64,000 bases of DNA, taken from Methylococcaceae bacterium (GTDB lineage Bacteria; Pseudomonadota; Gammaproteobacteria; Methylococcales; Methylomonadaceae). This document shows positions 10,960 to 64,000 of this stretch, piece after piece. Within the stretch, counting starts at the first letter, position 1. Each line of letters opens with the position of its first letter. A program made the position numbers and the translations under genes. The stretch spans positions 700 through 64,699 of the forward strand of contig JAGXGJ010000094.1 in assembly GCA_024636875.1 (NCBI GenBank), given 5' to 3'. The notes under the pieces are model-generated. The model made no database searches. It saw only the letters and a program-made list of their open reading frames with translations, and was not told the origin of the DNA.

Positions 10960-12393
10960 TTACCGCTTCAGTTTTGCTTTAAGCATTTTATTAACTTCAC
11001 CCGGATTTGCTTTACCCTGCATTTCTTTCATTACCTGCCCGACAAAGAAAGCGAACACTTTATCCTTACCGCTACGGTATTGCTCAACCTGACCCGGATT
11101 ACCGGCAATGATTTTATCAATAATAAGCTCTATTGCGCCGGTATCAGTGATTTGTTTTAAACCTTTTGCGGCGATAATTTCATCGGCTGTGGCGGTGCTT
11201 TGCCACATTTCTTCAAAGACTTGTTTGGCGATTTTTCCGGAAATAGTTTTGTCGCGAATGCGCGCCAATAAACCCGCCAGGCGTTCGGAACTGACAGGCG
11301 AATCCATAATCTCCAATCCGGCTTTATTGAGCGCGGCGGAAAGCTCGCCTGTTATCCAGTTGGCGCATAGCTTTGCTTCGCAACCTGATTCTTTAAGCGC
11401 TGTTTCGAAATAATCAGCCAACTGGCAGGAATACGTAAGAATAGCCGCATTCTCTTCATCCAGTGCGTATTGGTCCTTAAAACGGTGTTTTTTAGCCTGC
11501 GGTAATTCAGGCAATTGCGCTTTTATCACAGCCTTGTAATCTTCGCTTATAAAGACGGGTAACAAATCGGGGTCGGGAAAATAGCGGTAATCATTGGCCT
11601 CTTCCTTGCTGCGCATCGATCGCGTTTCATCCTTGACGGAATCATACAAACGGGTTTCCTGAACGACTTTACCGCCGTTTTCTATCAGCTCGATCTGACG
11701 CTCGATTTCATAATTGATGGCTTTCTCGACAAACTTGAACGAATTGATGTTTTTTATTTCAGCCCGTGTACCAAATTCATTCTGGCCTTTTGGACGCACC
11801 GATACGTTGGCATCACAGCGGAACGACCCTTCCTGCATATTGCCGTCACAAATATCCAGATAGCGCACCAGCTCATGCAGTTGTTTCATATAAGCGACGG
11901 CTTCTTTCGCCGAACGCATATCCGGCTCGGAGACAATTTCCAGCAGCGGCGTACCGGCACGGTTTAAATCAATCCCGGTCAAGCCATGAAAATCTTCATG
12001 CAGCGATTTACCGGCATCCTCTTCGAGATGGGCACGGGTGATGCCGATGCGCTTGCTTACTCCATCGACTTCAATTTCCAGATGCCCCTTGCCGACAATC
12101 GGCAATTCCATTTGACTGATCTGATAACCTTTGGGCAAATCCGGGTAAAAATAATTTTTTCTGGCAAAAACGGAATAAGGGGCGATTTCCGCTTCAATTG
12201 CCATACCAAAAATGACTGCTTTATGTACGGCTTCTTCATTTAATACCGGCAACACGCCGGGCAAGCCTAAATCAACTGCACAGGCTTGAGTATTGGGTGC
12301 TGCGCCATAAGCAGTAGGAGCACCGGAAAAAATTTTCGATTTGGTGGCCAGTTGGGTATGAATTTCGAGGCCGATGACTGTTTCCCATTCCAC
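10960..12393 (-). CDS. gatB: Asp-tRNA(Asn)/Glu-tRNA(Gln) amidotransferase subunit B
   Basis: 477-aa full-length GatB ([15 protein letters not shown].., C-terminal YqeY-like domain). Last gene of a gatC-gatA-gatB operon. Confidence 0.96.
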
Positions 12394-12404
12394 TTGTTTG
12401 CTCC

Positions 12405-13856
12405 TTACTCAAAACCTTTGGGGGGTTGTAAATGCCAATCTGTGACTTGCTGATACCGATGAGCAATGTTCAACAATCTGTCTTCGGCAAAATAATTGCC
12501 GATAATTTGCAGGCCTACCGGTTTATCTTTGACAAAGCCGGCGGGAATCGAAATAGCAGGCACCCCTGCGAGGTTGATGGCAATGGTATAAATATCCGAC
12601 AAATACATTTCAATCGGATTGCCGATTTTTTCACCGATGCCAAAGGCAGTGGTAGGCGATACCGGCCCCATAACCACATCGACCTGCGCTAAAGCATTTT
12701 TGAAGTCTTCACTGATTAAACGGCGTATTTTCTGCGCTTTAATATAATACGCATCGTAATAGCCCGCGGATAACGCATAAGTGCCCATGAGAATGCGTCG
12801 TTTTACTTCCTTGCCAAAGCCTTCGCCGCGCGAGCGCGTATACAAATCGGTTAAATCCGCCGGGTTTTCACAGCGGTAGCCATAGCGTACGCCGTCAAAA
12901 CGCGACAGGTTTGCCGAACATTCAGCGGGCGCAATCACATAATAAGCCGGAATGGCCAAGTTAAGGTTAGGCATGGCTATTTCCCTGATTTCCGCACCCA
13001 GTTTCCGGTATTCATTGACAGCTGTTTCAAGGGCTGCAGCCACATCACTGTTTAGACCGTCGCCAAAAAATTCTTTGGGCAAACCGATTTTCAGGCCTGC
13101 AATCGAGTTATTTAGCCCTGCGCTGTAGTCAGGCACAGGCAGATCGACGCTGGTTGAGTCTTTTTCATCAAATCCCGCCATGGTTTGCAGCATGATGGCC
13201 GCATCCTCAACGCTGCGGGTCATGGGCCCGCCTTGATCCAGACTGGACGCATAGGCAATCATGCCGTAGCGGGATACGCGTCCGTACGTGGGCTTTAAGC
13301 CGGTAATACCACAAAGAGCCGCGGGCTGCCGTATCGAGCCGCCGGTATCTGTACCGGTAGCAGCAACTGCCAGCCGTGCCGCCACGGCTGATGCTGAGCC
13401 GCCTGACGAACCGCCTGGAACGGTATTCATATCCCAGGGATTTTTAACTGGACCATAATAACTGGTTTCATTGGATGAACCCATGGCAAACTCGTCCATA
13501 TTGAGCTTGCCCAGCAGCACCGCGCCCGCCTGATTGAAATTTTCGACCACAGTAGCATTGTAGGGAGCAATAAAATTATCCAGCATTTTAGAACCACAAG
13601 TGGTTTTAACGCCTTCAGTACAAAAAATATCTTTTTGCGCAATGGGTATGCCGGTCAACAGCTCAGGATTTCCGTTAGCAAGCCGAACATCAGCTGCTTT
13701 GGCATTCCGCAGCGCTGAATCTTCGCTGATGGTTATATAGGTATTCAGCTTCTGATGTCGTTTGATCCGTTTTAAAAAAGCCTGCGTCAGTTCTACGCTG
13801 GAAAATTCACCGGAGCGCAAACCCTGAGCTAATTGTATAATTGTTTTGTTGTGCAT
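12405..13856 (-). CDS. gatA: Glu-tRNA(Gln) amidotransferase subunit A
   Basis: 483-aa ORF with the amidase signature ([13 protein letters not shown].., [12 protein letters not shown]). Confidence 0.96.
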
Positions 13857-53850: not shown

Positions 53851-56373
53851 TTATTTCAATCTATCAAGCAGCGCCTGAGCGGTCAATTGTTGCTCTGGCG
53901 TACCCTTCTCAAGCACCTCTCTGGCAATATCTCTGGCTGCGTCAGAATCATTCATATCAATATAAGCCATCGCCAAATCCAGCTTCGTTTCCAGCTCATC
54001 CAGATCAGAATCCTGTCCTTCTTCTGATATATCAAAGTCAAAATCATCTTCCAAGGGATCATTTGAGATATTTTCACTCAAAGCGGCCCGATTATCGGTT
54101 GAAAAATCTATACCATGATAACCTTCATCAAAGCCCTTTACAACGCTTGAAACAAGCTTATCGAGCTCCTTTTCCTTATCAGCTTTCTCACTCAGGTCAA
54201 AATCAAACGCTTCAAATTCATCCTTACCCGCAAGTTCTCGCGGTTTCCACAAGACGTCATCATGAGCCTTGTCTAATTCTGTGTTATCAGTTGGCCCACC
54301 TGAATCAAAATCAATACTTTCGTTATTCTTCCACTCATCATCTGGAACGTCATCATCAAAGGAAGTCAAATTAACATTCAACAAACCACCTGCTGTCTCA
54401 GATGTTTCTTTAACTGCCTCCTCATCAAGTGGCTCATTAGAAGCAACCGGGATAAAATCCGCATTCTTGATGCCGATGACTGGCCGGTTTGCTTCAACTC
54501 CATCAGGTTCGGCTAGAGTTGCATGGTTTTTTTCAAAAGTTGTCTTCTTTTCAGCAGCAAAACGATCCACTCCAGAAGAAAACAATATTGAATCCGGGCA
54601 AATATCACGGCCCATTTGGGTCACTTTCGCCCAAAACCCAATATCATCTTTTTTACCCGTCTCTGCCAATTCGCTGACATAGGCTTCAAAAGCATGCTTG
54701 TCTTTTCTGGAATAAATAATTTCCAGAAGTTTCAATTTGCAGTCATCACGATCAGGCTGATCTTCAAGTGCATCTCGCATCAGCTCCTCCGCTTGTTGAT
54801 AACGCCCATAAGCCAGATAAACATCAGCTTCGGAAACCGGATCAATTTCATTCTGATCCGTATCAAATAGGTCAACGTCGGTACTTGAAATTTCACCTAG
54901 GAAAGAACTTTCACCTGTACCATCTGCATCATAAGCAACGCTATTTTTAGCACGCGACGGAGAAGAATTCCCCTTGGATTTATATATGTTTGAAGCATCA
55001 AACGGAGTTTGAATCTCTGTTTCTTGATCAAGCTTATGTTTTCGCCACCAATACCATCCTAGCAATGTTAACGTTCCCATGCCTATACCGGCAACCCATA
55101 CATAATAACTATCCCGCCCCCCCTCTGCTTCGGATTCTGGCTTAATAGTCGACTTGACAACAGCTTTGGCCGGTTTTGGTTGAGCCACAGCAGACTCAAT
55201 ATCGACCTGGCCTGGCGCTGCCTGGATAACTGGCTCCTGATTAACCGGCTTTGCCTGCAACTGTTTTTGCATAACGGCAAGCTGCTGATCTTTTGAAGCA
55301 ATGATTTGTTGCATCGTAGCCAACTGTTTTTCAAGATCTGCTACTTTGGCTTGCAGTGCATCGTCTACAGGAGTTGCAACGTCAACCTCATTGCCCGCTG
55401 TTTCAGAAGGCGCCGGCAACTTATCAAGGCCTGTCCTTATAGTGTTTATTTGTTCATTTACTGCAGCCGGCTCTACTTTTTCAGGGATAGCGGCTTCGGC
55501 AGGAGCAAGCAATGTTAACTTTTTAGATGCATCAGCTTTGTTAACATTTGCCGTTTCAATCGGGGTTTTGGTCAAGCGGTGTTTCCAGGCTTTTGTTTGC
55601 CTGTTGAGTTCAGCCAAGGCCTGATTTCGTGAAAACTTTAAAGCAGCCTTTCTATCCGGAATCTTCAGTATTTTTCCAATCAACAAGGCATTCATATTTT
55701 CCTGATAGAACGCACGCGGATTTTCTTCGTACAGAGCAATCATCATCTGCTCAACAGACACACCATCCCACCTGCCTGCCCGTTCTGCAATTTTCCAGAG
55801 CGTATCATTTTTTTCAGTCGGGCCATATTCCCTCGCTCCACTTGAACTCTTTCCAGTTCCTGTTTGCTGTCTTTTTAAGGCTGGATGTACTGGGAAAATT
55901 CCCTGCTCCGGTTCATAACTTTCGGAACGCGCTGCAATGGGAATAGTTGTCTGTTTATAGGCATCCGGAGGATCCACAAGCACAGTAAATTCACGATACA
56001 GACTACCTTTTGGCCAGCTCACTTCGAGCAGGAAATCCAGAAAGGGTTCTTTTACAGCTACATCAGAACTCAGCCTGATAACCACCGAACCATTAGCGCT
56101 GACTACTGTTGTAAATTTAATTTTTGATAGAAAAGGAGTCCATGGCACTCCTGCTTCATCAAACTTATCAGGGGAGGCTAAATGTACCTTTATGTCAGAA
56201 GCCTTTTCACCCGACGATTCAACCAATGAAATCACGGCATTCAGATTCTGATTAAGCGATGAGAGCAATTTAATATCGCCAATCCCTAATGTATGGCCAC
56301 TAGCTGGAGCCAGTAACGATAATACCGCTAGAATGTTGGTTAAATTGCGCAAACTGCTTTCCTTCATACTCAT
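53851..56373 (-). CDS. fimV: FimV-family peptidoglycan-binding type IV pilus assembly protein
   Basis: 840-aa ORF with a signal peptide, a LysM segment (YGPTEKNDTLWKIAERAG..), one TM helix (YYVWVAGIGMGTLTLLGWYWW), an acidic cytoplasmic region and the FimV C-terminal motif (LDLAMAYIDMNDSDAARDIAREVL). It is adjacent to asd, as in Pseudomonas. Confidence 0.88.
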   Translation of the reverse strand: MSMKESSLRNLTNILAVLSLLAPASGHTLGIGDIKLLSSLNQNLNAVISLVESSGEKASDIKVHLASPDKFDEAGVPWTPFLSKIKFTTVVSANGSVVIRLSSDVAVKEPFLDFLLEVSWPKGSLYREFTVLVDPPDAYKQTTIPIAARSESYEPEQGIFPVHPALKRQQTGTGKSSSGAREYGPTEKNDTLWKIAERAGRWDGVSVEQMMIALYEENPRAFYQENMNALLIGKILKIPDRKAALKFSRNQALAELNRQTKAWKHRLTKTPIETANVNKADASKKLTLLAPAEAAIPEKVEPAAVNEQINTIRTGLDKLPAPSETAGNEVDVATPVDDALQAKVADLEKQLATMQQIIASKDQQLAVMQKQLQAKPVNQEPVIQAAPGQVDIESAVAQPKPAKAVVKSTIKPESEAEGGRDSYYVWVAGIGMGTLTLLGWYWWRKHKLDQETEIQTPFDASNIYKSKGNSSPSRAKNSVAYDADGTGESSFLGEISSTDVDLFDTDQNEIDPVSEADVYLAYGRYQQAEELMRDALEDQPDRDDCKLKLLEIIYSRKDKHAFEAYVSELAETGKKDDIGFWAKVTQMGRDICPDSILFSSGVDRFAAEKKTTFEKNHATLAEPDGVEANRPVIGIKNADFIPVASNEPLDEEAVKETSETAGGLLNVNLTSFDDDVPDDEWKNNESIDFDSGGPTDNTELDKAHDDVLWKPRELAGKDEFEAFDFDLSEKADKEKELDKLVSSVVKGFDEGYHGIDFSTDNRAALSENISNDPLEDDFDFDISEEGQDSDLDELETKLDLAMAYIDMNDSDAARDIAREVLEKGTPEQQLTAQALLDRLK

Positions 56374-56421: not shown

Positions 56422-57444
56422 CTAGATGTAATTTTTTACCAGAACTTCTGCTATTTGCACACTGTTAAGAGCAGCACCTTTCCGGACATTATCACTTACT
56501 ACCCACAAATTAATACCTTGCGGATGCGATATATCGTCTCTGATACGCCCCACAAACACATCATCACTACCAGATGATTCCGTCACAGCCGTCGGATATC
56601 CACCATTGATGCGCTCATCCATCACTGTTATGCCTGGCGCTTTTTCCAGCAACGCCCTGACTTCGCCGGCACCAATTTTTTTACCCGTCTCAATATGTAC
56701 CGCTTCGGAATGTCCGTAAAAGACAGGCACCCGAACCGCAGTTGCATTAACTTTAATGTTGACATCACCAAGGATTTTCTGGGTCTCCCATACCATCTTC
56801 ATTTCTTCCTTGGTATAGCCGTTATCCATAAACACATCAATTTGAGGCAGCACGTTAAAGGCAATCTGCTTTGGATAAACGCCAGGCGTAATCGCTTGCA
56901 AATTAAGAATATTGGCGGTTTGCAAGCCCAATTCTTCGATGGCCTCTTTACCTGTCCCGGAAACCGCCTGATAGGTACACACATTGATTCTGGTGATACC
57001 TGCTGCATCATAAATAGGCTTTAACGCGACTAACATCTGAATGGTTGAACAATTAGGATTGGCGATAATTCCACGATTCTTATACTCTGCAATTTTCTCC
57101 GGATTCACCTCGGGTACTACCAAAGGAATATCATCGTCATAACGAAACTGTGAAGTGTTGTCAATAACGATACAACCGGCAGCAGCGGCTTTTGGCGCGT
57201 AAATTTCCGAAACAGATGCGCCCGGAGAAAATAAACCTATATGCGCTTTGGAAAAATCAAAAGTTGCCAAATCTTGTACATTTAAAGAACCGCCTTTAAA
57301 TGGCATTCTTTTACCCACTGAATTTCTGCTGGCTAAAGCATAAACCTCACCTACAGGAAAATTACGCTCTTCAAGAATTGCCAGCATGGCTTCACCCACT
57401 GCTCCCGTCGCACCAACAACTGCAACGTTATAAACTTTACTCAT
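56422..57444 (-). CDS. asd: Aspartate-semialdehyde dehydrogenase
   Basis: 340-aa ORF (VAVVGATGAVG, active-site NPNCSTIQM, GHSEAV). Confidence 0.95.
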   Translation of the reverse strand: MSKVYNVAVVGATGAVGEAMLAILEERNFPVGEVYALASRNSVGKRMPFKGGSLNVQDLATFDFSKAHIGLFSPGASVSEIYAPKAAAAGCIVIDNTSQFRYDDDIPLVVPEVNPEKIAEYKNRGIIANPNCSTIQMLVALKPIYDAAGITRINVCTYQAVSGTGKEAIEELGLQTANILNLQAITPGVYPKQIAFNVLPQIDVFMDNGYTKEEMKMVWETQKILGDVNIKVNATAVRVPVFYGHSEAVHIETGKKIGAGEVRALLEKAPGITVMDERINGGYPTAVTESSGSDDVFVGRIRDDISHPQGINLWVVSDNVRKGAALNSVQIAEVLVKNYI

Positions 57445-57493: not shown

Positions 57494-58168
<675 letters not shown>

Positions 58169-58323: not shown

Positions 58324-58800
58324 ATGCGTGTTGAAGATTTAATGAAAACAAAAGTATTTACAGTAGAGCAACACGAGTTGATCGATCGGGTCTTTTTTTT
58401 AATCCATTACGAAAAAGTTCGCCACATACCCGTCGTTGAAAAAGGCAAAGTTATCGCGATCGTATCCGACAGAGATCTGTACAAAGCCCTGGGGCCGAAA
58501 CACAACTCCAGCGCAATTGAAGCAGCGCCCGGCAAAAGCACTGTAGAACTGCATGTTATCCCACAAAAAGTACACCACATTATGCGCCGAGGCGTATTGA
58601 CTGTTAATCCTGACACCTATGCATCAGAAGCTGCAGCAATTATGGCCGACAAAAAAGTTGGCGCATTGCCGGTGGTCGACAAGGCTGGCAAATTAGTCGG
58701 CATAATATCAGCTATAGACATACTCCGGGTTTTTTCAAAAATAGAAAAATCGAGTGAAAAAAGAGAGCAAAGAATAGCGACTGGCATCAGTCATACATAA
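58324..58800 (+). CDS. CBS-domain pair protein
   Basis: 158-aa ORF with two CBS-like units (..HIPVVEKGKVIAIVSDRDL.. and ..GALPVVDKAGKLVGIISAIDIL). Confidence 0.8.
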   Translation: MRVEDLMKTKVFTVEQHELIDRVFFLIHYEKVRHIPVVEKGKVIAIVSDRDLYKALGPKHNSSAIEAAPGKSTVELHVIPQKVHHIMRRGVLTVNPDTYASEAAAIMADKKVGALPVVDKAGKLVGIISAIDILRVFSKIEKSSEKREQRIATGISHT

Positions 58801-58822: not shown

Positions 58823-58848
58823 AAAAAGTCCCGCAGTGGGACTTTTTT
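58823..58848 (+). terminator. Intrinsic terminator after the CBS gene
   Basis: aaaaAGTCCCgcagtGGGACTttttt is a stem-loop followed by a T-run, 23 nt after the stop codon. Confidence 0.75.
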
Positions 58849-59116: not shown

Positions 59117-61945
59117 ATGATGAGTAACCTGATTAAACTTTTTCAAGACTCTTCTTCCCTACAAGGCAGCAATGCCAGTTTCGTCGAAAACTTATATGAA
59201 CGGTTCCTGGAAGATCCTGAATCTGTTGAGCCCAGCTGGCAAAAAGAATTCAACGCCATTCATCACGGAACAGTTTATGAGGCCCCGCACAGCCCTGTTG
59301 TAGAACGCTTTGCACAGCTTGCCGTTAAATCTCAAGGCAGACTGGCTCAATTACAAGGCTTCACCGAAGAAAGCGTAAAAAAACAGGCAGCTGTCTCCCG
59401 TCTAATTAACCATTACCGCGTTCGCGGACACCAAATTGCCAACAATAATCCACTAGGGAAAACCGCCCCCCCACCTGCCGATATGGATCTGGCCTATTAC
59501 GGGCTTGCCGAACCGGATATGGATACCCTGTTCGATACAGGCGCGCTTTATGGAGTTGATCGATTACCTTTACGTGACATTATTGCCAGCCTGAAAGAAA
59601 TCTATTGCGGCAGCATCGGCTCTGAATTCATGCACATAGTCGATACCTATACCAGACGCTGGGTCATAAACCGTCTAGAAAATTCTAAAGCCAACTTAAA
59701 ACTGGAACCTGAAAAAAAACAATGGCTATTAAAACTTTTGACTGCGGCTGAAGGTATAGAAGTCCATTTGCAACATAAATTTGTAGGACAAAAACGCTTC
59801 TCTCTGGAAGGCGGTGAATCCCTGATTCCCATTCTGGATGAATTAATTCAAAACGCGGGAGAGAAAGGCGTAAAAGAAATTGTTATCGGCATGGCGCATC
59901 GAGGCCGCTTGAATGTTCTGGTCAATATTTTGGGTAAAAGCCCTGCCAGTTTATTTGATGAATTTGTCGGCACGTATACACCTTCACCCGGCGTCAGTTC
60001 GGGTGACGTAAAATATCACATGGGTTTTTCATCTGATGTTGACACGCCCGGCGGCCCTGTACATTTAACACTCGCCTTCAATCCTTCACATCTGGAAATC
60101 ATCAATCCGGTTGTTGAAGGCTCGGTCAAGGCCCGCCAGGACCGCGCCGGAAAAAAGGGCATAAGAACCGTTATTCCGGTATTAATTCACGGGGATGCGG
60201 CCTTTTCAGGACAGGGTATCGTCATGGAAACCCTGAATATGTCGCAAACCCGCGCTTTTTCTACAGGTGGAACCATTCATATCGTCATTAACAATCAAAT
60301 CGGCTTTACTACCAGCAACCTGCTGGATGCACGCTCCACGCTTTATTGCACCGATGTTGCCAGCATGCTTCAGGCGCCGGTTTTTCATGTCAACGGTGAT
60401 GATCCTGAAGCGGTACTATTTGTTACCAAACTCGCTCTCGATTACCGGATGACTTTCAATAAGGATGTGGTCATAGAACTTATTTGCTATCGCCGACTCG
60501 GTCATAACGAGGCTGACGAACCTGCAACTACCCAGCCCATCATGTATAAAAAAATCCGCAAACACAAAACCACGCGGAAACTTTATGCTCAAAAGCTTAT
60601 TACTGAAGGCATTATTAGCGACGAACAAGCTGCAATAATGGAGCAGGATTACCAGAATTTGCTTGAAGCGGGGCAAATTGTTTCCCGGCCCGTATTGGAA
60701 AATGCCAGTTATTCCTACACCAATCAATGGCACCAATACTATAATAAAAGCTGGGATAGCGCCTGTAACACGGCCATTTCACTGGATCAACTGCGCTATT
60801 GTAATGATCAGATGCAGCTGCTTCCTGCAGGTTTTGAATTGCATCCCAGAGTTGCTAAAGTCATGGATAACCGCCGTAAAATGGCCGCCGGCGCTATGCC
60901 CCTGGATTGGGGATTTGCTGAAAATCTGGCTTATGCCAGCCTCATTATAGAAAAATACCATGTTCGACTGACCGGTCAGGACGTGGGGCGGGGCACATTT
61001 GTTCACCGCCACGCAGTTTTACATAACCAGCTCAATAATAAAACCTACACACCTATCAAACATCTGGACAAGGATCAAGGCCGCGCCCAGATTTTTGATT
61101 CCCTGTTGTCTGAGGCTGGCGTCCTGGGTTTCGAATACGGCTACAGTACAACAATGCCAAATACCCTGGTCATCTGGGAAGCGCAATTTGGCGATTTTGC
61201 CAATGGCGCTCAAGTAGTCATCGATCAGTTTATCAGTTCCGGCGAAACCAAATGGGGACGCTTGTGTGGACTGGTTATGTTGTTGCCCCATGGCTACGAA
61301 GGCCAGGGACCTGAACACTCATCTGCAAGACTGGAACGTTATCTGCAACTCTGTGCCGAACATAATATCCAGGTTTGCAATCCGACCACTCCCGCACAGA
61401 TATTCCATTTGTTGCGCCGCCAGATAATACGTCCATATCGAAAACCACTGATCATTATGAGTCCTAAAAGTCTTCTGCGGCATAAACTTGCAGTTTCCAC
61501 GCTTGAAGATCTGACCAACGGACAATTTCAGACTATCATCGGAGAGCAGGATGACATCAATCCCAAAAAAGTCACACGCTTTATCTTATGTTCAGGCAAA
61601 GTCTATTATGATCTGCTGGAAACGCGTCGGCTGGACAATCTGAAACATGTTGCTATTGCCCGTATCGAACAGCTTTATCCTTTCCCCGATAAATTATTTA
61701 AAGCAGAAATTGCAAAATATGAGCATCTGGAAGAGTTCATCTGGTGTCAGGAAGAGCCGAAAAATCAGGGTGTCTGGTATCAATCCAAACATCACTTTAC
61801 CGACAATCTGCCAGAACATATCAGCGTAACTTATGCCGGACGTGATGCATCGGCAGCGCCCGCTGTAGGCAATTTCCAAGTTCATATAGAACAACAAAAA
61901 GCTGTCGTCCAATCGGCCTTATACGGCAAACCTTCAGGAAAATAA
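59117..61945 (+). CDS. sucA: 2-oxoglutarate dehydrogenase E1 component
   Basis: 942-aa ORF with ThDP-fold motifs ([25 protein letters not shown]). It appears full-length and uninterrupted. Confidence 0.96.
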
Positions 61946-61946
61946 C

Positions 61947-63200
61947 ATGAGCATTGAAGTCCTAGTTCCCAATCTACCCGAATCTGTTTCTGATGCAACG
62001 CTGATCACCTGGCACAAACAAGCCGGTGATTTTGTTACCAAGAATGAAAACCTTGTTGATCTTGAAACAGATAAAGTGGTGCTTGAAGTAACGGCACCTG
62101 AATCGGGCGTACTCAGCCAAATACTTAAGGACAACGGCGCTATCGTTACCGGCGGTGAGGTACTGGCATTATTGGAAGCTGAAACGGCTCAACAGCGCTC
62201 AGCCGTCGAAAAACAGGCAATACCCGATAAAGCACCTGAGCACAACGATGAAGATATACCCTTAAGTCCTTCAGTCCGCCGGTTGATTCATGAGAATACC
62301 CTGGATGCTTCGGCAATAAAGGGCACCGGAAAAAGCGGCCGGCTCACCAAAACAGATGTGCTGGATCATCTCGACAAACACACACCAGCAACTGTAAAGG
62401 CGCAAAAGCCAACCGCAGAGACTCAAAATATTGCGTCTCCAGAAGCAGCAAAGCCGGAAACAGAAAAACCGTCCGAAACCACAACGATCACCTCAAATCT
62501 ACGGCCTGAACAACGTGTTGCAATGACCCGCTTAAGGGCAAAAGTTGCTGAACGGCTGTTACAAGCACAACAAAATGCAGCCATGTTGACAACTTTCAAC
62601 GAAGTCAACATGCAGAGTGTCATTGACCTTCGTAACCAGTACAAAACCAGATTCGAACAGAAACACGCCGTCAAACTGGGTTTTATGTCGTTTTTTGTCA
62701 AAGCCTCAATTGAGGCTTTGAAACACTTCCCGGCAATCAATGCTTCTATTGATGATAACGATATCATCTATCATGGCTACTACGACCTGGGCATTGCCGT
62801 CAGCACACCGCGAGGCCTGATTGTGCCGGTGTTGCATGACGCCGATCAACTTGATTTTGCCGGTATTGAAAAATGCATTGTCGATTTTGGAGAAAAAGCC
62901 AGAGCTGGCACATTAACCTATGACGACTTGAAGGGCGGCACGTTTACTATTACCAACGGCGGCGTATTTGGCTCAATGTTGTCTACTCCCATACTTAATC
63001 CACCCCAGTGCGCAATTTTAGGGATGCACGCCATCAAGGAACGAGTTGTTGTTGAAAATAGCCAGATGGTTATAAGGCCGATTATGTATCTGGCTCTTTC
63101 ATACGATCATCGCCTGGTAGATGGCCGCGAAGCCGTGCAATTTTTGGTCACGATAAAAGAATGCCTGGAAGCTCCCGCCCACCTGCTACTTAACATTTAA
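61947..63200 (+). CDS. sucB: Dihydrolipoyllysine-residue succinyltransferase (E2o)
   Basis: 417-aa ORF with a lipoyl domain ([11 protein letters not shown]), an E3-binding domain ([12 protein letters not shown]..) and a catalytic DHRLVDG motif. Confidence 0.96.
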
Positions 63201-63204
63201 CGCT

Positions 63205-64000
63205 ATGTCAAAAAAGCATTCACATTACGATGTTATCATCATTGGTGCAGGGCCGGCCGGTTATGCCAGTGCTATTCGCTGTGCACAGCTCGGATTAACA
63301 ACCGCCTGCATTGATAGCTGGCGCAATAAAAAAGGCCAGAGTCGATTAGGCGGTTCCCACCTCAATACCGGCGGCCTTGCCACCATGACCTTGCTGGAAT
63401 CCGCAAAAATCTATCATCAGTTCAACCAGGAGATTGCTAAACACGGCATTCATGTCGACGCCATTTCAATGGATTTACCGGTAATGATTCAACGCAAAGA
63501 TAAAATTATCGATGAAATCGGCCTCAAAATGGCTGACTTGTTCGCGCATCACAAGATAGACCACATTCAGGCAAAGGCCCGATTACTGAATGCACGCCAG
63601 GTGGAAGTGACCGCCCTGGATACCCAGGCGTATTCAATCCTTAATGCCGAGCATATTATTCTGGCGACGGGTTCTTCACCCATCAAATTACCCTGTGCAA
63701 CAGTTGACAACGAATTTATTATTGATTCCATCACCGCTTTAAATCTTCAAGAAGTTCCCAAAAAATTGGCCATTATCGGCGCCGGCGCGGTTGGCCTTGA
63801 ATTAGCAAGCATCTGGAATAGACTCGGCGCTGAAACCATACTGCTGGAAGCACAAGAAAACTTTTTATCCTTACTCGACCAGCAAATTTCACGTGAAGCC
63901 TATCGTATTTACTGTCAACAGGGACTGGACTTGCGATTGGGCGCACGGGTTGTTTCTGCAAAAAAAATCAACCGGAAAGTCACAGTAGATTACCAAGACC
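63205..64000 (+). CDS. lpd: Dihydrolipoamide dehydrogenase-like flavoprotein lacking the redox-active CxxxxC (partial, runs off window)
   Basis: My own translation from the ATG at 63205 reads MSKKHSHYDVIIIGAGPAGYASAIRCAQLGLTTACIDSW...RLGGSHLNTGGLATMTLLESAK...KKLAIIGAGAVGLELASIWNRLGAE... It is colinear with sucAB-linked Lpd. The canonical GGTCLNVGCIPSK motif is replaced at 63349..63396. Confidence 0.85.
   Translation, partial: MSKKHSHYDVIIIGAGPAGYASAIRCAQLGLTTACIDSWRNKKGQSRLGGSHLNTGGLATMTLLESAKIYHQFNQEIAKHGIHVDAISMDLPVMIQRKDKIIDEIGLKMADLFAHHKIDHIQAKARLLNARQVEVTALDTQAYSILNAEHIILATGSSPIKLPCATVDNEFIIDSITALNLQEVPKKLAIIGAGAVGLELASIWNRLGAETILLEAQENFLSLLDQQISREAYRIYCQQGLDLRLGARVVSAKKINRKVTVDYQD

What the first reader, a model, noticed from the sequence alone, without database searches (positions are those of the whole stretch)
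63205..64000. E3 (lpd) gene of the sucAB operon has lost both redox-active cysteines
Translating the + strand from ATG 63205 gives a clear dihydrolipoamide dehydrogenase N-terminus in the E3 position right after sucB. The FAD Rossmann motif IIIGAGPAGY is present, and so is the NAD Rossmann motif IIGAGAVGLE near 63770-63810. Class-I pyridine-nucleotide-disulfide oxidoreductases carry the motif GGxCxNxGCxPSK at this point. This gene instead encodes LGGSHLNTGGLATMTLL (63349..63396). The first Cys is replaced by His and the second by Gly, and the following Pro-Ser-Lys is also gone. The flanks stay in frame and many codons differ, so this is not a single-base error or a frameshift. Without the disulfide, the canonical FAD-to-dihydrolipoamide electron relay cannot work. 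The product is therefore a dead E3 (pseudoenzyme or structural subunit), a flavoprotein with altered chemistry, or a gene in early decay. sucA and sucB next to it look fully intact.
Basis: partly seen in the sequence, partly recalled or inferred. Interest (0 to 1): 0.7.

Follow-up and report, generated by a model that had tools for sequence, protein, structure and literature searches.

The report
Conserved cysteine-less E3 in methanotroph sucAB operon
The third gene of this methane-oxidiser's 2-oxoglutarate dehydrogenase operon encodes a well-preserved copy of the E3 enzyme that has lost its catalytic cysteines, lysine and histidine; the same loss is kept under selection across a whole clade of methanotrophs and may bear on why these bacteria show no 2-oxoglutarate dehydrogenase activity.

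Summary
The gene after sucA-sucB encodes an LpdG-type dihydrolipoyl dehydrogenase homologue of 481 aa (completed from an identical public contig). In it Cys48 is His, Cys53 is Gly and the CIPSK lysine is Met. Beyond the window, the catalytic His450' is Arg.

This is not an error or decay. All 81 species-level genomes recovered (Methylobacter, Methylovulum, Crenothrix, Methylomicrobium lacus and others), 119 further protein clusters and 91 metagenome contigs lack Cys48 (His/Tyr/Phe instead). The gene follows sucA-sucB wherever upstream DNA is present. ORFs are intact, dN/dS is about 0.1, and the replaced codons show synonymous turnover.

The FAD and NAD fingerprints, the interface domain and the fold are kept (TM 0.97 to P. 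aeruginosa LpdG). Other catalytic residues were lost independently in sublineages.

Best reading: a selected, disulfide-dead "pseudo-E3" flavoprotein that still binds FAD/NAD(H) and probably docks on SucB, but cannot reoxidise dihydrolipoamide by the canonical route. Its actual role (brake/scaffold or diaphorase-like enzyme) is unresolved. I could not check for a canonical lpd elsewhere in these genomes. Databases name it dihydrolipoyl dehydrogenase. It may bear on the long-missing 2-OGDH activity of type I methanotrophs.

The parts
59117..61945 (+). sucA, 2-oxoglutarate dehydrogenase E1o (942 aa), first gene of the unit
   Evidence: NF006914 scores 1338 bits against a cut-off of 764. Pfam finds E1_dh, Transket_pyr and OxoGdeHyase_C. 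It lies upstream of lpd* in every locus with enough DNA. dN/dS is 0.057.
61947..63200 (+). sucB, E2o succinyltransferase (417 aa) with lipoyl domain, E3-binding domain and catalytic domain
   Evidence: NF004309 scores 574 bits against a cut-off of 449. Pfam finds Biotin_lipoyl, E3_binding (residues 105-139) and 2-oxoacid_dh. LETDKV and DHRLVDG are present. dN/dS is 0.081. It starts 1 nt after the sucA stop.
63205..64000 (+). lpd* (cysteine-less E3 homologue): first 265 of 481 codons, cut by the end of the window
   Evidence: The full ORF is L001:2026-3471, with DNA 100% identical over the overlap. It starts 4 nt after the sucB stop. TIGR01350 scores 448 bits against a cut-off of 408.8. dN/dS is 0.105-0.12.
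63235..63264 (+). FAD-binding Rossmann fingerprint IIIGAGPAGY (residues 11-20), intact
   Evidence: Seen. G14, G16, P17 and G19 are kept in at least 85% of the clade.
63346..63402 (+). Degenerate redox-disulfide loop LGGSHLNTGGLATMTLLES (residues 48-66), where canonical enzymes have LGGTCLNVGCIPSKALLDS
   Evidence: Ungapped alignment to 5u8u, 1lpf and 3lad. Clade table. T47, C48, I54, P55 and K57 are the canonical-invariant positions lost here.
63358..63360 (+). CAC = His52, in place of the interchange cysteine (Cys48 in A. vinelandii numbering)
   Evidence: Across 81 orthologues the site is His 39, Tyr 39, Phe 3, Cys 0. Both His codons and both Tyr codons are used.
63373..63375 (+). GGC = Gly57, in place of the flavin-proximal charge-transfer cysteine (Cys53)
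   Evidence: Across the clade the site is Cys 50, Gly 21, Ser 10. It was lost at least 3 times on the NJ tree. All four Gly codons are used.
63385..63387 (+). ATG = Met61, in place of the invariant lysine of CIPSK (Lys57)
   Evidence: The site is Met, Ile, Leu or Val in 81/81 orthologues.
63772..63801 (+). NAD-binding Rossmann fingerprint IIGAGAVGLE (residues 190-199), intact
   Evidence: Seen. G192, G194, G197 and E199 are kept in the clade.
63847..63849 (+). Glu215 at the end of the second strand of the NAD domain (the acidic residue typical of NAD(H)-specific sites), intact
   Evidence: Seen. E215 is kept in at least 85% of the clade. The functional role comes from general knowledge of Rossmann folds.
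58823..58847 (+). Terminator-like hairpin (11-bp stem plus T run) after the upstream CBS-domain gene; likely left boundary of the sucA-sucB-lpd* transcription unit
   Evidence: Found, which is a consensus scan only. No comparable site lies between sucA, sucB and lpd*.

Best explanation
lpd* is a conserved, disulfide-dead derivative of the OGDH-type dihydrolipoyl dehydrogenase (LpdG type), in effect a pseudo-E3.

Shown here:
- It descends from a genuine E3 and keeps the E3 gene slot, tightly coupled to sucB.
- It keeps the whole fold, both dinucleotide fingerprints and the interface domain.
- It has lost the catalytic apparatus on the si face of the flavin: Cys48 and Lys57 in every member, plus Cys53, His450' or Glu455' in different sublineages.
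- It evolves under strong purifying selection.

Inferred:
- The protein still binds FAD and NAD(H), dimerises and docks on the peripheral subunit-binding domain of SucB.
- It cannot accept electrons from dihydrolipoyl-SucB through the canonical thiol-disulfide relay.
- The operon-encoded E1o-E2o-E3* assembly therefore cannot turn over with NAD+ by itself.
- Any sustained 2-oxoglutarate oxidation would need a canonical Lpd encoded elsewhere (as in E. coli, where sucAB borrows the PDH-operon Lpd) competing for the same SucB sites.
- On this reading E3* acts as a non-catalytic, possibly NAD(H)-responsive placeholder or brake on oxidative TCA flux. That would fit the undetectable 2-OGDH activity long reported for type I methanotrophs.

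Sub-confidences:
- Loss of canonical E3 chemistry: about 0.9.
- A functional, selected flavoprotein: about 0.9.
- Docks on SucB: about 0.55.
- Brake or placeholder role: about 0.35-0.4.
For: Ancestry and position:
- The best PDB and NCBIfam matches are Lpd.
- The nearest canonical homologues sit in sucA-sucB-lpd-sucCD operons.
- sucA-sucB-lpd* synteny holds in every locus with upstream DNA.
- Intergenic gaps are 1 and 4 nt, with no terminator-like site inside the unit.

Catalytic loss:
- Clade table, 81 genomes: Cys48 0/81; Lys57 0/81; Cys53 50/81; His450 to Arg in 26; Glu455 to Lys in 25.
- On the NJ tree Cys48 and Lys57 were lost once at the base. Cys53 was lost at least 3 times, His450 once and Glu455 twice.
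- No compensating conserved Cys pair exists.

Selection:
- All complete ORFs are intact at 471-503 codons.
- Median NG86 dN/dS is 0.105-0.12, against 0.057 for sucA and 0.081 for sucB.
- The substituted codons show synonymous turnover.

Retained parts:
- 63 of 83 canonical-invariant positions are kept, including both GxGxxG motifs, E199, E215, R283 and G322-D323.
- The FAD domain, which carries the dead loop, is the most divergent domain (0.66 versus 0.77-0.83 mean pairwise identity).
- An AF2 model of a relative 82.5% identical has pLDDT 92.6, TM 0.97 and rmsd about 1 A to P. aeruginosa LpdG.
- D417 and E441 are invariant or nearly invariant. They align with human E3 Asp413/Glu437, which I recall from the literature as contacts for subunit-binding domains.
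- SucB keeps its E3-binding domain.

Environment:
- 0 metagenome contigs pair this clade's sucB tail with GGxCLNxGC, against 91 with GGxxLNxG. In the 80 read, the Cys48 site is Tyr 38, His 34, Phe 8.

Literature:
- The OGDH genes are present but the activity was 'never demonstrated' in gammaproteobacterial methanotrophs (PMC5023229; PMC517821).
- In M. alcaliphilum 20ZR extracts, PDH was 120-290 nmol/min/mg while 2-OGDH was not detected (PMC5802761).
- Cys-less Lpd relatives such as Irc15p and Mtb LpdA bind FAD and are reduced by NADH but reduce no disulfides (PMC6296175).
Against: - No biochemical data exist for this protein.
- I could not establish that a canonical lpd exists in the same genomes. 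No second Lpd-like gene lies in the 64-kb window or in about 170 flanking loci, and whole genomes were not searchable.
- Strict conservation of the NAD(H) site and of the substituted residues (position 48 only aromatic, 53 only small, 57 only hydrophobic) would also fit a new redox activity rather than a passive placeholder.
- The link to missing OGDH activity is indirect. The quoted assays and the 13C data showing a complete oxidative TCA cycle come from Methylotuvimicrobium, Methylomonas and Methylococcus, whose sucAB-linked E3 status I could not determine.
- The PSBD-contact mapping rests on remembered human E3 literature. It was not tested here.
Confidence: 0.55

Rival explanations
1. Neo-functionalised flavoenzyme. 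E3* is an NADH:acceptor oxidoreductase (diaphorase, quinone or metal reductase, or transhydrogenase-like), as found for other Cys-less Lpd relatives. On this reading its place in the suc operon is historical or serves co-regulation, and it plays no docking role in the complex.
For: - The FAD and NAD(H) fingerprints and Glu215 are strictly kept, and the NAD and central domains are the best conserved.
- The substituted active-site residues are themselves constrained, with synonymous turnover.
- There are about 20 clade-specific invariant residues.
- Precedents: Irc15p is reduced by NADH at 250 s-1 and has diaphorase and menadione reductase activity but no disulfide reductase activity. Mtb LpdA is a quinone reductase. 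STH lacks one Cys and the His (PMC6296175).
Against: - The sucA-sucB-lpd* order with a 4-nt gap holds in all loci across about 35% protein divergence. That argues for stoichiometric co-production with E2o.
- The interface-domain residues aligned with the PSBD contacts are invariant.
- The active-site states differ between sublineages (H-G-R, Y-C-K, H-C-H, Y-S-D). That is unexpected for one defined new chemistry.
- The STH and LpdA-type family models score far below their cut-offs (306 versus 465; 234 versus 479).
Confidence: 0.27
2. Non-canonical but still working E3. Dihydrolipoyl-SucB reduces the flavin directly (a thiol-C4a adduct, with the dithiol substrate supplying both sulfurs), or through the single remaining Cys53. 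His, Tyr or Arg would replace the missing base, so the complex stays active.
For: - E1o and E2o are under very strong purifying selection, which implies that the complex turns over.
- Cys53 is kept in 50/81 orthologues. Where it is lost it becomes Gly or Ser, which would open space at the flavin. Position 48 is always His, Tyr or Phe.
- Flavins can be reduced by dithiols chemically, and single-Cys flavoprotein disulfide reductases exist (group 3 in the classification quoted in PMC6296175).
Against: - Four different combinations of active-site residues occur in the clade, including forms with no Cys, no Lys and no catalytic His.
- From my own knowledge, not checked here: Cys-to-Ser/Ala mutants of the disulfide in E. 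coli and A. vinelandii Lpd lose essentially all lipoamide activity.
- Irc15p and LpdA show no disulfide reduction.
- No OGDH activity has been reported in extracts of type I methanotrophs.
Confidence: 0.08
3. Artefact or recent pseudogene: a sequencing or assembly error, or a gene in early decay.
For: None beyond the unusual motif itself. The window shows only 55% of the gene.
Against: - An identical sequence occurs in a second public assembly.
- The 481-codon ORF is intact.
- The same loss occurs in 81 genomes, 119 protein clusters and all 80 metagenome junctions read, of 91 matching contigs.
- dN/dS is about 0.1.
- Several codons differ from any Cys codon by one or two steps, and synonymous variants are fixed in the clade.
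Confidence: 0.01
4. It belongs to a different flavoprotein family that never had the disulfide (STH, LpdA-type quinone reductase or another) and merely sits next to sucB.
For: Weak, sub-threshold matches to the STH model (306 bits) and the LpdA-type model (234 bits).
Against: - TIGR01350 (lipoamide dehydrogenase) is the best model and scores above its cut-off.
- Identity to solved LpdG structures is 47%, ungapped through the motif.
- The closest canonical relatives (53-58% identical, CxxxxC and HxxxxE present) are sucAB-linked E3s.
- The loop still reads GGxxLNxG, and HAxPTLSE is otherwise kept.
Confidence: 0.02

Closest known systems
OGDH-type dihydrolipoyl dehydrogenase LpdG (P. aeruginosa 5U8U, P. 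putida/fluorescens 1LPF/6AWA, A. vinelandii 3LAD)
   Same: - About 47% identity over the full length.
- Same four-domain fold (TM 0.97, rmsd about 1 A for the model).
- Same gene position after sucA-sucB.
- Same FAD and NAD fingerprints and the same HAxPTLSE loop context.
   Different: - Cys48, Cys53 (in the window's lineage), Lys57 and His450' are replaced.
- The TIGR01350 score is 448-482 bits, against 526-546 for the nearest canonical relatives.
- sucCD does not follow the gene.
Saccharomyces cerevisiae Irc15p (Lpd1p paralogue lacking both redox-active cysteines)
   Same: An Lpd-derived FAD protein without the CxxxxC pair. Irc15p is dimeric, is rapidly reduced by NADH, has no lipoate, glutathione or cystine reductase activity, and has diaphorase and quinone reductase activity (PMC6296175). 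It is the best functional analogue for what E3* can and cannot do.
   Different: - It arose independently, in a eukaryote.
- It is microtubule-associated and is not encoded with, or known to bind, a 2-oxoacid dehydrogenase E2.
- It keeps the His-Glu dyad, whereas the window protein has lost the His.
Mycobacterium tuberculosis LpdA (Rv3303c), NAD(P)H quinone reductase
   Same: A member of the flavoprotein disulfide reductase fold that lacks one Cys and the His-Glu dyad. It reduces no disulfides but does reduce quinones (as summarised in PMC6296175).
   Different: - It is a different subfamily. The NF005883 model scores only 234 bits against a cut-off of 479.
- It is not linked to sucAB.
- It keeps one Cys, whereas the window protein has none.
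Soluble pyridine nucleotide transhydrogenase SthA/UdhA
   Same: A relative of the Lpd fold that lacks at least one redox-active Cys and the catalytic His.
   Different: The NF003585 model scores 306 bits against a cut-off of 465. It is a distinct family with its own conserved features and is not part of a 2-oxoacid dehydrogenase operon.
E3-binding protein (protein X) of eukaryotic pyruvate dehydrogenase complexes (analogy only)
   Same: From general knowledge: a catalytically inactive paralogue of a complex subunit that is retained as a structural component of a 2-oxoacid dehydrogenase complex.
   Different: It is a dead E2, not a dead E3. It has no sequence relationship to lpd*. A structural role for E3* is only inferred here.

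Membership tests
Dihydrolipoyl dehydrogenase, E3 (EC 1.8.1.4; TIGR01350; group 1 flavoprotein disulfide reductases) | FAD domain, NAD domain, central domain and dimerisation domain (Pyr_redox_2 / Pyr_redox / Pyr_redox_dim fold) | tested here: met
   - Pfam finds PF07992 and PF00070 in the window part, and PF02852 in the full gene.
- The AF2 model has pLDDT 92.6. The Foldseek top hits are Lpd structures with TM 0.97. The model is of P0334, which is 82.5% identical to the window protein.
Dihydrolipoyl dehydrogenase, E3 (EC 1.8.1.4; TIGR01350; group 1 flavoprotein disulfide reductases) | Profile score above the curated equivalog cut-off | tested here: met
   TIGR01350 scores 448.2 bits against a cut-off of 408.8 for the full protein. 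Relatives score 456-482 and canonical neighbours 526-546. This is why NCBI and JGI name clade members 'dihydrolipoyl dehydrogenase'.
Dihydrolipoyl dehydrogenase, E3 (EC 1.8.1.4; TIGR01350; group 1 flavoprotein disulfide reductases) | Redox-active disulfide CxxxxC next to the flavin (GGTCLNVGCIPSK) | tested here: not met
   The window has GGSHLNTGGLATM. Cys48 is absent in 81/81 orthologues and the motif lysine is absent in 81/81. No compensating Cys pair exists.
Dihydrolipoyl dehydrogenase, E3 (EC 1.8.1.4; TIGR01350; group 1 flavoprotein disulfide reductases) | C-terminal His-Glu catalytic dyad (HAHPTLSE) supplied by the partner subunit | tested here: not met
   The protein completed from L001 reads HARPTLSE. 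His is Arg in 26 orthologues and Glu is Lys in 25 others; the dyad is intact in the remainder.
Dihydrolipoyl dehydrogenase, E3 (EC 1.8.1.4; TIGR01350; group 1 flavoprotein disulfide reductases) | Encoded with, or serving, E1/E2 of a 2-oxoacid dehydrogenase complex | tested here: met
   The order sucA-sucB-lpd* is found in the window and in all related loci with upstream DNA. Physical association with the complex was not tested.
Dihydrolipoyl dehydrogenase, E3 (EC 1.8.1.4; TIGR01350; group 1 flavoprotein disulfide reductases) | NAD+-dependent oxidation of dihydrolipoamide | not testable with these tools
   An enzyme assay is needed. The sequence predicts loss of the canonical mechanism.
Pseudoenzyme (catalytically dead homologue kept by selection) | Clear homology to an active enzyme, with the essential catalytic residues replaced | tested here: met
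Pseudoenzyme (catalytically dead homologue kept by selection) | Purifying selection and long-term retention of an intact ORF | tested here: met
   Median dN/dS is 0.105-0.12 over 329-934 pairs. All 79 ORFs that are complete in their contigs are intact. The replaced codons show synonymous turnover.
Pseudoenzyme (catalytically dead homologue kept by selection) | Demonstrated lack of the ancestral activity | not testable with these tools
   This can only be inferred, from the missing residues and from Irc15p and LpdA as precedents.
Soluble transhydrogenase STH (NF003585) | Profile score above the curated cut-off | tested here: not met
   306.5 bits against a cut-off of 465.
LpdA-type NAD(P)H-quinone dehydrogenase (NF005883, M. 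tuberculosis Rv3303c) | Profile score above the curated cut-off | tested here: not met
   233.9 bits against a cut-off of 479.

The most novel reading that the evidence does not exclude
The sucAB-linked E3 of the Methylobacter / Methylovulum / Crenothrix / Methylomicrobium lacus clade is a selected pseudo-E3 that occupies the E3 sites of SucB. On this reading it keeps the 2-oxoglutarate dehydrogenase complex uncoupled from NAD+, or only weakly active. It would then be the molecular lesion behind the classical 'missing 2-oxoglutarate dehydrogenase activity / incomplete TCA cycle' of these type I methanotrophs, and a built-in, possibly NADH-sensing, brake on oxidative TCA flux.
Probability: 0.25. 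Interest if true: 0.85.

Novelty: new variant of a known kind. Interest (0 to 1): 0.66.

Why it matters
Since the 1970s, type I (gammaproteobacterial) methanotrophs have been described as lacking 2-oxoglutarate dehydrogenase activity. Genome sequencing made this a puzzle, because the genes are present (PMC517821, PMC5023229, PMC8527097, PMC5802761).

For one large and environmentally dominant clade (Methylobacter and relatives, including Crenothrix), the operon's own E3 lacks every residue of the thiol-disulfide relay, yet it is carefully preserved. This yields a concrete, testable hypothesis for the missing activity.

It also flags a systematic annotation error. Pipelines name these proteins dihydrolipoyl dehydrogenase, so metabolic models assume a complete OGDH complex.

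Finally, it adds a bacterial example to the few known cysteine-less Lpd derivatives (Irc15p, LpdA, STH). Unlike those, this one is encoded with its complex partners. The stepwise, lineage-specific loss of further catalytic residues is a clean natural series for studying how an enzyme subunit becomes a pseudoenzyme.

Tried and rejected
1. Sequencing error or decay: rejected.

2. A second, canonical lpd nearby: none in the 64-kb window or in about 170 flanking loci. The two ORFs of about 480 aa at 10960-13856(-) are gatB and gatA.

3. Finding the canonical Lpd of the same genomes:
   - Naming the closest canonical representatives gave Arenicellales, Wenzhouxiangellaceae and Neisseriaceae, not Methylococcales.
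   - The closest canonical representative, P0122, sits next to gcvT in an unrelated gammaproteobacterium. Its ClpB is only 62-78% identical to that of Methylovulum.
   - The question stays unresolved.

4. Status of Methylomonas, Methylotuvimicrobium and Methylococcus: not reached.
   - The searches with P0017 and P0166 were saturated by this clade or by other orders.
   - No protein from those genera appeared. That is not evidence either way.

5. P0166 (Methylothermaceae B42; Cys48 to Ser, His to Tyr) looked like a deeper member of the clade. It belongs to a tiny separate lineage that is not linked to sucAB. One relative keeps both Cys but has lost the His.

6. Acceleration test: against an outgroup operon (L086), SucA is 54%, SucB 52% and Lpd 51% identical. 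There is no gross speed-up of lpd*.

7. Relocated redox Cys pair: none. C26, C164 and C311 are enriched in the clade but not universal, and the window protein lacks C311.

8. Literature: no paper in the held library mentions a cysteine-less E3 in methanotrophs. Fu et al. 2017 (the 5GB1 TCA cycle paper) is not held.

9. The first protein search returned mostly partial sequences and missed full-length RefSeq members, so absences in that list were not used as evidence.
Full report
**Observation.** The + strand from ATG 63205 to the window end translates without stops into 265 residues: MSKKHSHYDVIIIGAGPAGY...LGGSHLNTGGLATMTLLES...IIGAGAVGLE....
- Pfam finds Pyr_redox_2 and Pyr_redox. NCBIfam ranks TIGR01350 (lipoamide dehydrogenase) first.
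- Against solved structures the best matches are the OGDH-type Lpd of Pseudomonas and Azotobacter (5u8u, 1lpf, 3lad; E about 1e-69). The alignment is ungapped through the active-site loop, so LGGSHLNTGGLATMTLLES lies opposite LGGTCLNVGCIPSKALLDS.
- Cys48 (A. vinelandii numbering; the interchange thiol) is therefore His (CAC, 63358-63360). Cys53 (the flavin-proximal thiol) is Gly (GGC, 63373-63375). The lysine of CIPSK is Met (63385-63387).
- sucA (59117-61945) and sucB (61947-63200) precede the gene with gaps of 1 and 4 nt and score far above their curated cut-offs.
- SucB has its lipoyl lysine (LETDKV), an E3-binding domain and the DHRLVDG catalytic motif.

**Completing the gene.** An exact look-up of the window's SucB found a public contig (L001, Logan SRR13628066) that is 100% identical to the window over 851 overlapping bases and carries the whole gene.
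- The gene is an intact 481-codon ORF.
- Its C-terminal active-site loop reads IHARPTLSEA where canonical enzymes have HAHPTLSE. The catalytic histidine of the His-Glu dyad is therefore also gone (Arg), while the Glu remains.
- The full protein scores 448 bits on TIGR01350 (cut-off 408.8). The nearest canonical relatives score 526-546. The STH and LpdA-type quinone reductase models are far below their cut-offs.

**Not an error and not decay.**
- A scan of one genome per species returned 80 loci. All are Methylococcales: Methylobacter psychrophilus, tundripaludum, luteus, marinus and svalbardensis; Methylovulum miyakonense and psychrotolerans; Crenothrix; Methylocucumis; Methylomicrobium lacus; and many MAGs. 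They are 66-88% identical to the window protein.
- Every locus with enough upstream DNA has sucA-sucB immediately before the gene.
- Every gene that is complete in its contig is an intact ORF of 471-503 codons.
- At the Cys48 position the 81 sequences have His (39), Tyr (39) or Phe (3), never Cys.
- The CIPSK lysine is Met, Ile, Leu or Val in all 81. Cys53 is kept in 50 and is Gly or Ser in 31.
- The catalytic His is Arg in 26 (the window's sublineage). The Glu is Lys in 25 others (the M. tundripaludum group) and Asp in 2.
- A further 119 protein clusters found with a Methylicorpusculum member all lack Cys48.
- A DNA pattern joined this clade's sucB tail (…DHRLVDG…PAHLLLNI) to GGxCLNxGC 138-168 nt downstream. 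It found nothing in 241 million metagenome records. The same pattern with GGxxLNxG found 91 contigs. The 80 that were read have Tyr 38, His 34, Phe 8 at the Cys48 site. The control on known loci hit 71 of 81.
- Among the best 150 representatives of the family at 50% identity, only this clade and two unrelated sequences lack CxxxxC.

**Selection.**
- Pairwise Nei-Gojobori dN/dS for lpd* has a median of 0.12 over 934 pairs with dS 0.05-1.5.
- On 329 pairs shared with its neighbours it is 0.105, against 0.057 for sucA and 0.081 for sucB.
- The substituted sites show synonymous turnover: His CAC 21 / CAT 16; Tyr TAT 18 / TAC 21; Gly with all four codons; Arg with five codons. The replacement residues are thus old and maintained.
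- On a neighbour-joining tree rooted with canonical Lpds, Cys48 and Lys57 were lost once, at the base of the clade. Cys53 was lost at least three times, His450 once and Glu455 twice.
- This is the pattern expected when a first inactivating change removes selection on the rest of the catalytic apparatus while the protein as a whole stays useful.

**What is kept and what is lost.**
- Of 83 positions conserved at 85% or more in 63 canonical Lpds, 63 are equally conserved in the clade. They include both GxGxxG fingerprints, E199, E215 (the acidic residue at the end of the second NAD-domain strand), R283, G322-D323 and H333.
- The 11 positions that are lost cluster in the disulfide loop (T47, C48, I54, P55, K57), with a few others (G104, L108, G119, V207, A331, E461).
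- Within the clade the FAD domain, which carries the dead loop, is the most divergent (0.66 mean pairwise identity). The NAD, central and interface domains are at 0.77-0.83. In canonical Lpds all four domains are alike.
- No new conserved cysteine pair replaces the lost one.
- An AlphaFold model of a member 82.5% identical to the window protein has pLDDT 92.6. It superposes on P. aeruginosa LpdG with TM 0.97 and rmsd about 1 A.
- Asp417 and Glu441 are invariant or nearly invariant. They align with human E3 Asp413 and Glu437, which I recall from the human E3-E3BD structures as contacts for subunit-binding domains. This mapping is inference, not a test.

**Relatives and context.**
- The nearest canonical homologues (53-58% identical over the full length, CxxxxC and HxHPTLSE present) are E3 genes of sucA-sucB-lpd-sucCD operons in other Gammaproteobacteria.
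- Against one such operon, SucA, SucB and Lpd are 54, 52 and 51% identical to the window's proteins. lpd* is therefore not grossly accelerated.
- In the window's lineage the gene is followed by a convergent dihaem cytochrome c gene and a NUDIX gene, not by sucCD.
- A terminator-like hairpin (58823-58847) separates the upstream CBS-domain gene from sucA. Nothing comparable lies inside sucA-sucB-lpd* (a consensus scan only).

**Mechanism.**
- Shown: the thiol-disulfide relay that carries electrons from dihydrolipoamide to FAD in every group-1 flavoprotein disulfide reductase cannot exist in this protein. The FAD and NAD(H) sites, the dimer interface and the fold are under selection.
- Precedents for Lpd-like proteins without the disulfide: yeast Irc15p binds FAD and is reduced by NADH at 250 s-1. 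It reduces ferricyanide, DCPIP and menadione but not lipoate, glutathione or cystine. M. tuberculosis LpdA is a quinone reductase. STH is a transhydrogenase (PMC6296175).
- My best-supported reading (inference) is a pseudo-E3. It would be produced stoichiometrically with SucA and SucB, bind FAD and NAD(H), dock on the SucB subunit-binding domain, and be unable to reoxidise dihydrolipoyl-SucB.
- Sustained turnover would then depend on a canonical Lpd encoded elsewhere, as in E. coli, where sucAB uses the Lpd of the PDH operon. That Lpd would compete for the same sites. E3* would act as a placeholder or brake, possibly responsive to NAD(H).
- The main rival is a neo-functionalised NADH:acceptor oxidoreductase. 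It is supported by the strict conservation of the NAD(H) site and of the substituted residues. It is weakened by the invariant operon coupling and by the four different active-site solutions in the clade.
- A non-canonical but working lipoamide dehydrogenase cannot be excluded, but it is unlikely.

**Link to a known puzzle.**
- The literature states that gammaproteobacterial methanotrophs carry 2-oxoglutarate dehydrogenase genes but that the activity 'has never been demonstrated' (PMC5023229; PMC517821; PMC8527097).
- In M. alcaliphilum 20ZR extracts, PDH was 120-290 nmol/min/mg and 2-OGDH was not detected (PMC5802761).
- 13C tracing, however, indicates a complete oxidative TCA cycle in M. buryatense 5GB1, and genetics suggests the same in Methylomonas DH-1 (PMC6373157; PMC6456754).
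- I could not determine whether those genera carry E3* or a canonical E3. All three protein searches were saturated by this clade or by other orders.
- The link is therefore a hypothesis, so far restricted to the Methylobacter-type clade.
- No paper in the held library mentions a cysteine-less E3 in methanotrophs.
- NCBI and JGI name these proteins dihydrolipoyl dehydrogenase.

**Limits.**
- There is no biochemistry.
- The presence of a canonical lpd in the same genomes is untested. None lies in the window or in about 170 flanking loci.
- The boundary of the clade within Methylococcales is unknown.
- The structure model is of a close relative, not of the window protein itself.
- The dN/dS values are pairwise estimates without a tree-based model.

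**Verdict.** The 'early decay' reading is refuted. The gene is a conserved, catalytically disabled E3 derivative: a new variant of the known kind 'cysteine-less Lpd homologue'. It is unusual in being retained inside the OGDH operon of a whole methanotroph clade, and it makes an old physiological question directly testable.

Noticed in passing
L082/L083 8001-9416 (protein P0166, Methylothermaceae bacterium B42): This is a separate small lineage of Lpd-like proteins with a degenerate active site (GGTSLLNGCIPAK; HAYPSLSD). The gene overlaps the stop of an upstream Cupredoxin_1 gene and is not next to sucAB. Relative P0423 has Ser and Phe at the Cys48 and His positions. Relative P0424 keeps both Cys but has lost the catalytic His. 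TIGR01350 scores 394.8 bits, below the cut-off, and the protein is named hypothetical.
   Followed up: partly
Proteins P0524 and P0267: Two other Lpd-family proteins have partly or fully degenerate active sites. P0524 keeps CxxxxC but reads HAYPSLAG (His to Tyr, Glu to Gly). P0267 (402 aa, metagenome only) reads GGTGLNYGSLAATS, with both Cys lost. Their contexts were not examined.
   Followed up: no
window 58324-58800 (+) and hairpin 58823-58847: A 158-aa CBS-pair domain protein gene lies just upstream of sucA and is followed by a strong terminator-like hairpin. The gene is conserved at this position only in the window's sublineage (17 loci). A regulatory link to the suc genes is possible but untested.
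   Followed up: partly
Clade members in public databases (e.g. P0121 = MDP3009935.1, P0274, P0292, P0481): Complete clade members that carry a source name are called 'dihydrolipoyl dehydrogenase' by NCBI and JGI, because they pass the TIGR01350 cut-off despite lacking the catalytic residues. This is a systematic annotation and metabolic-model error. Truncated copies are instead labelled 'FAD-dependent oxidoreductase'.
   Followed up: yes
L001 3520-4086 (-), i.e. just beyond the window's right end: A convergent gene for a 188-aa secreted-looking dihaem cytochrome c follows lpd* where canonical operons have sucCD. A NUDIX hydrolase gene comes next. This arrangement is seen only in a few close relatives (4 loci).
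   Followed up: partly
window 53851-56373 (-), 56422-57444 (-), 57494-58132 (-), 10960-13856 (-): The neighbourhood consists of ordinary housekeeping genes: a FimV-like protein, aspartate-semialdehyde dehydrogenase, adenylate kinase, and gatB/gatA. There is no sign of a mobile element around the suc genes.
   Followed up: no
lpd* residues 26, 164 and 311 (window 63280-63282 and 63694-63696; residue 311 lies beyond the window): Three cysteines are enriched in the clade relative to canonical Lpds: C26 (0.91 vs 0.14), C164 (0.71 vs 0.05) and C311 (0.95 vs 0.17). The window protein has Phe at 311. They are not universal, so they are unlikely to form a relocated redox pair, but their structural positions were not examined.
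   Followed up: partly
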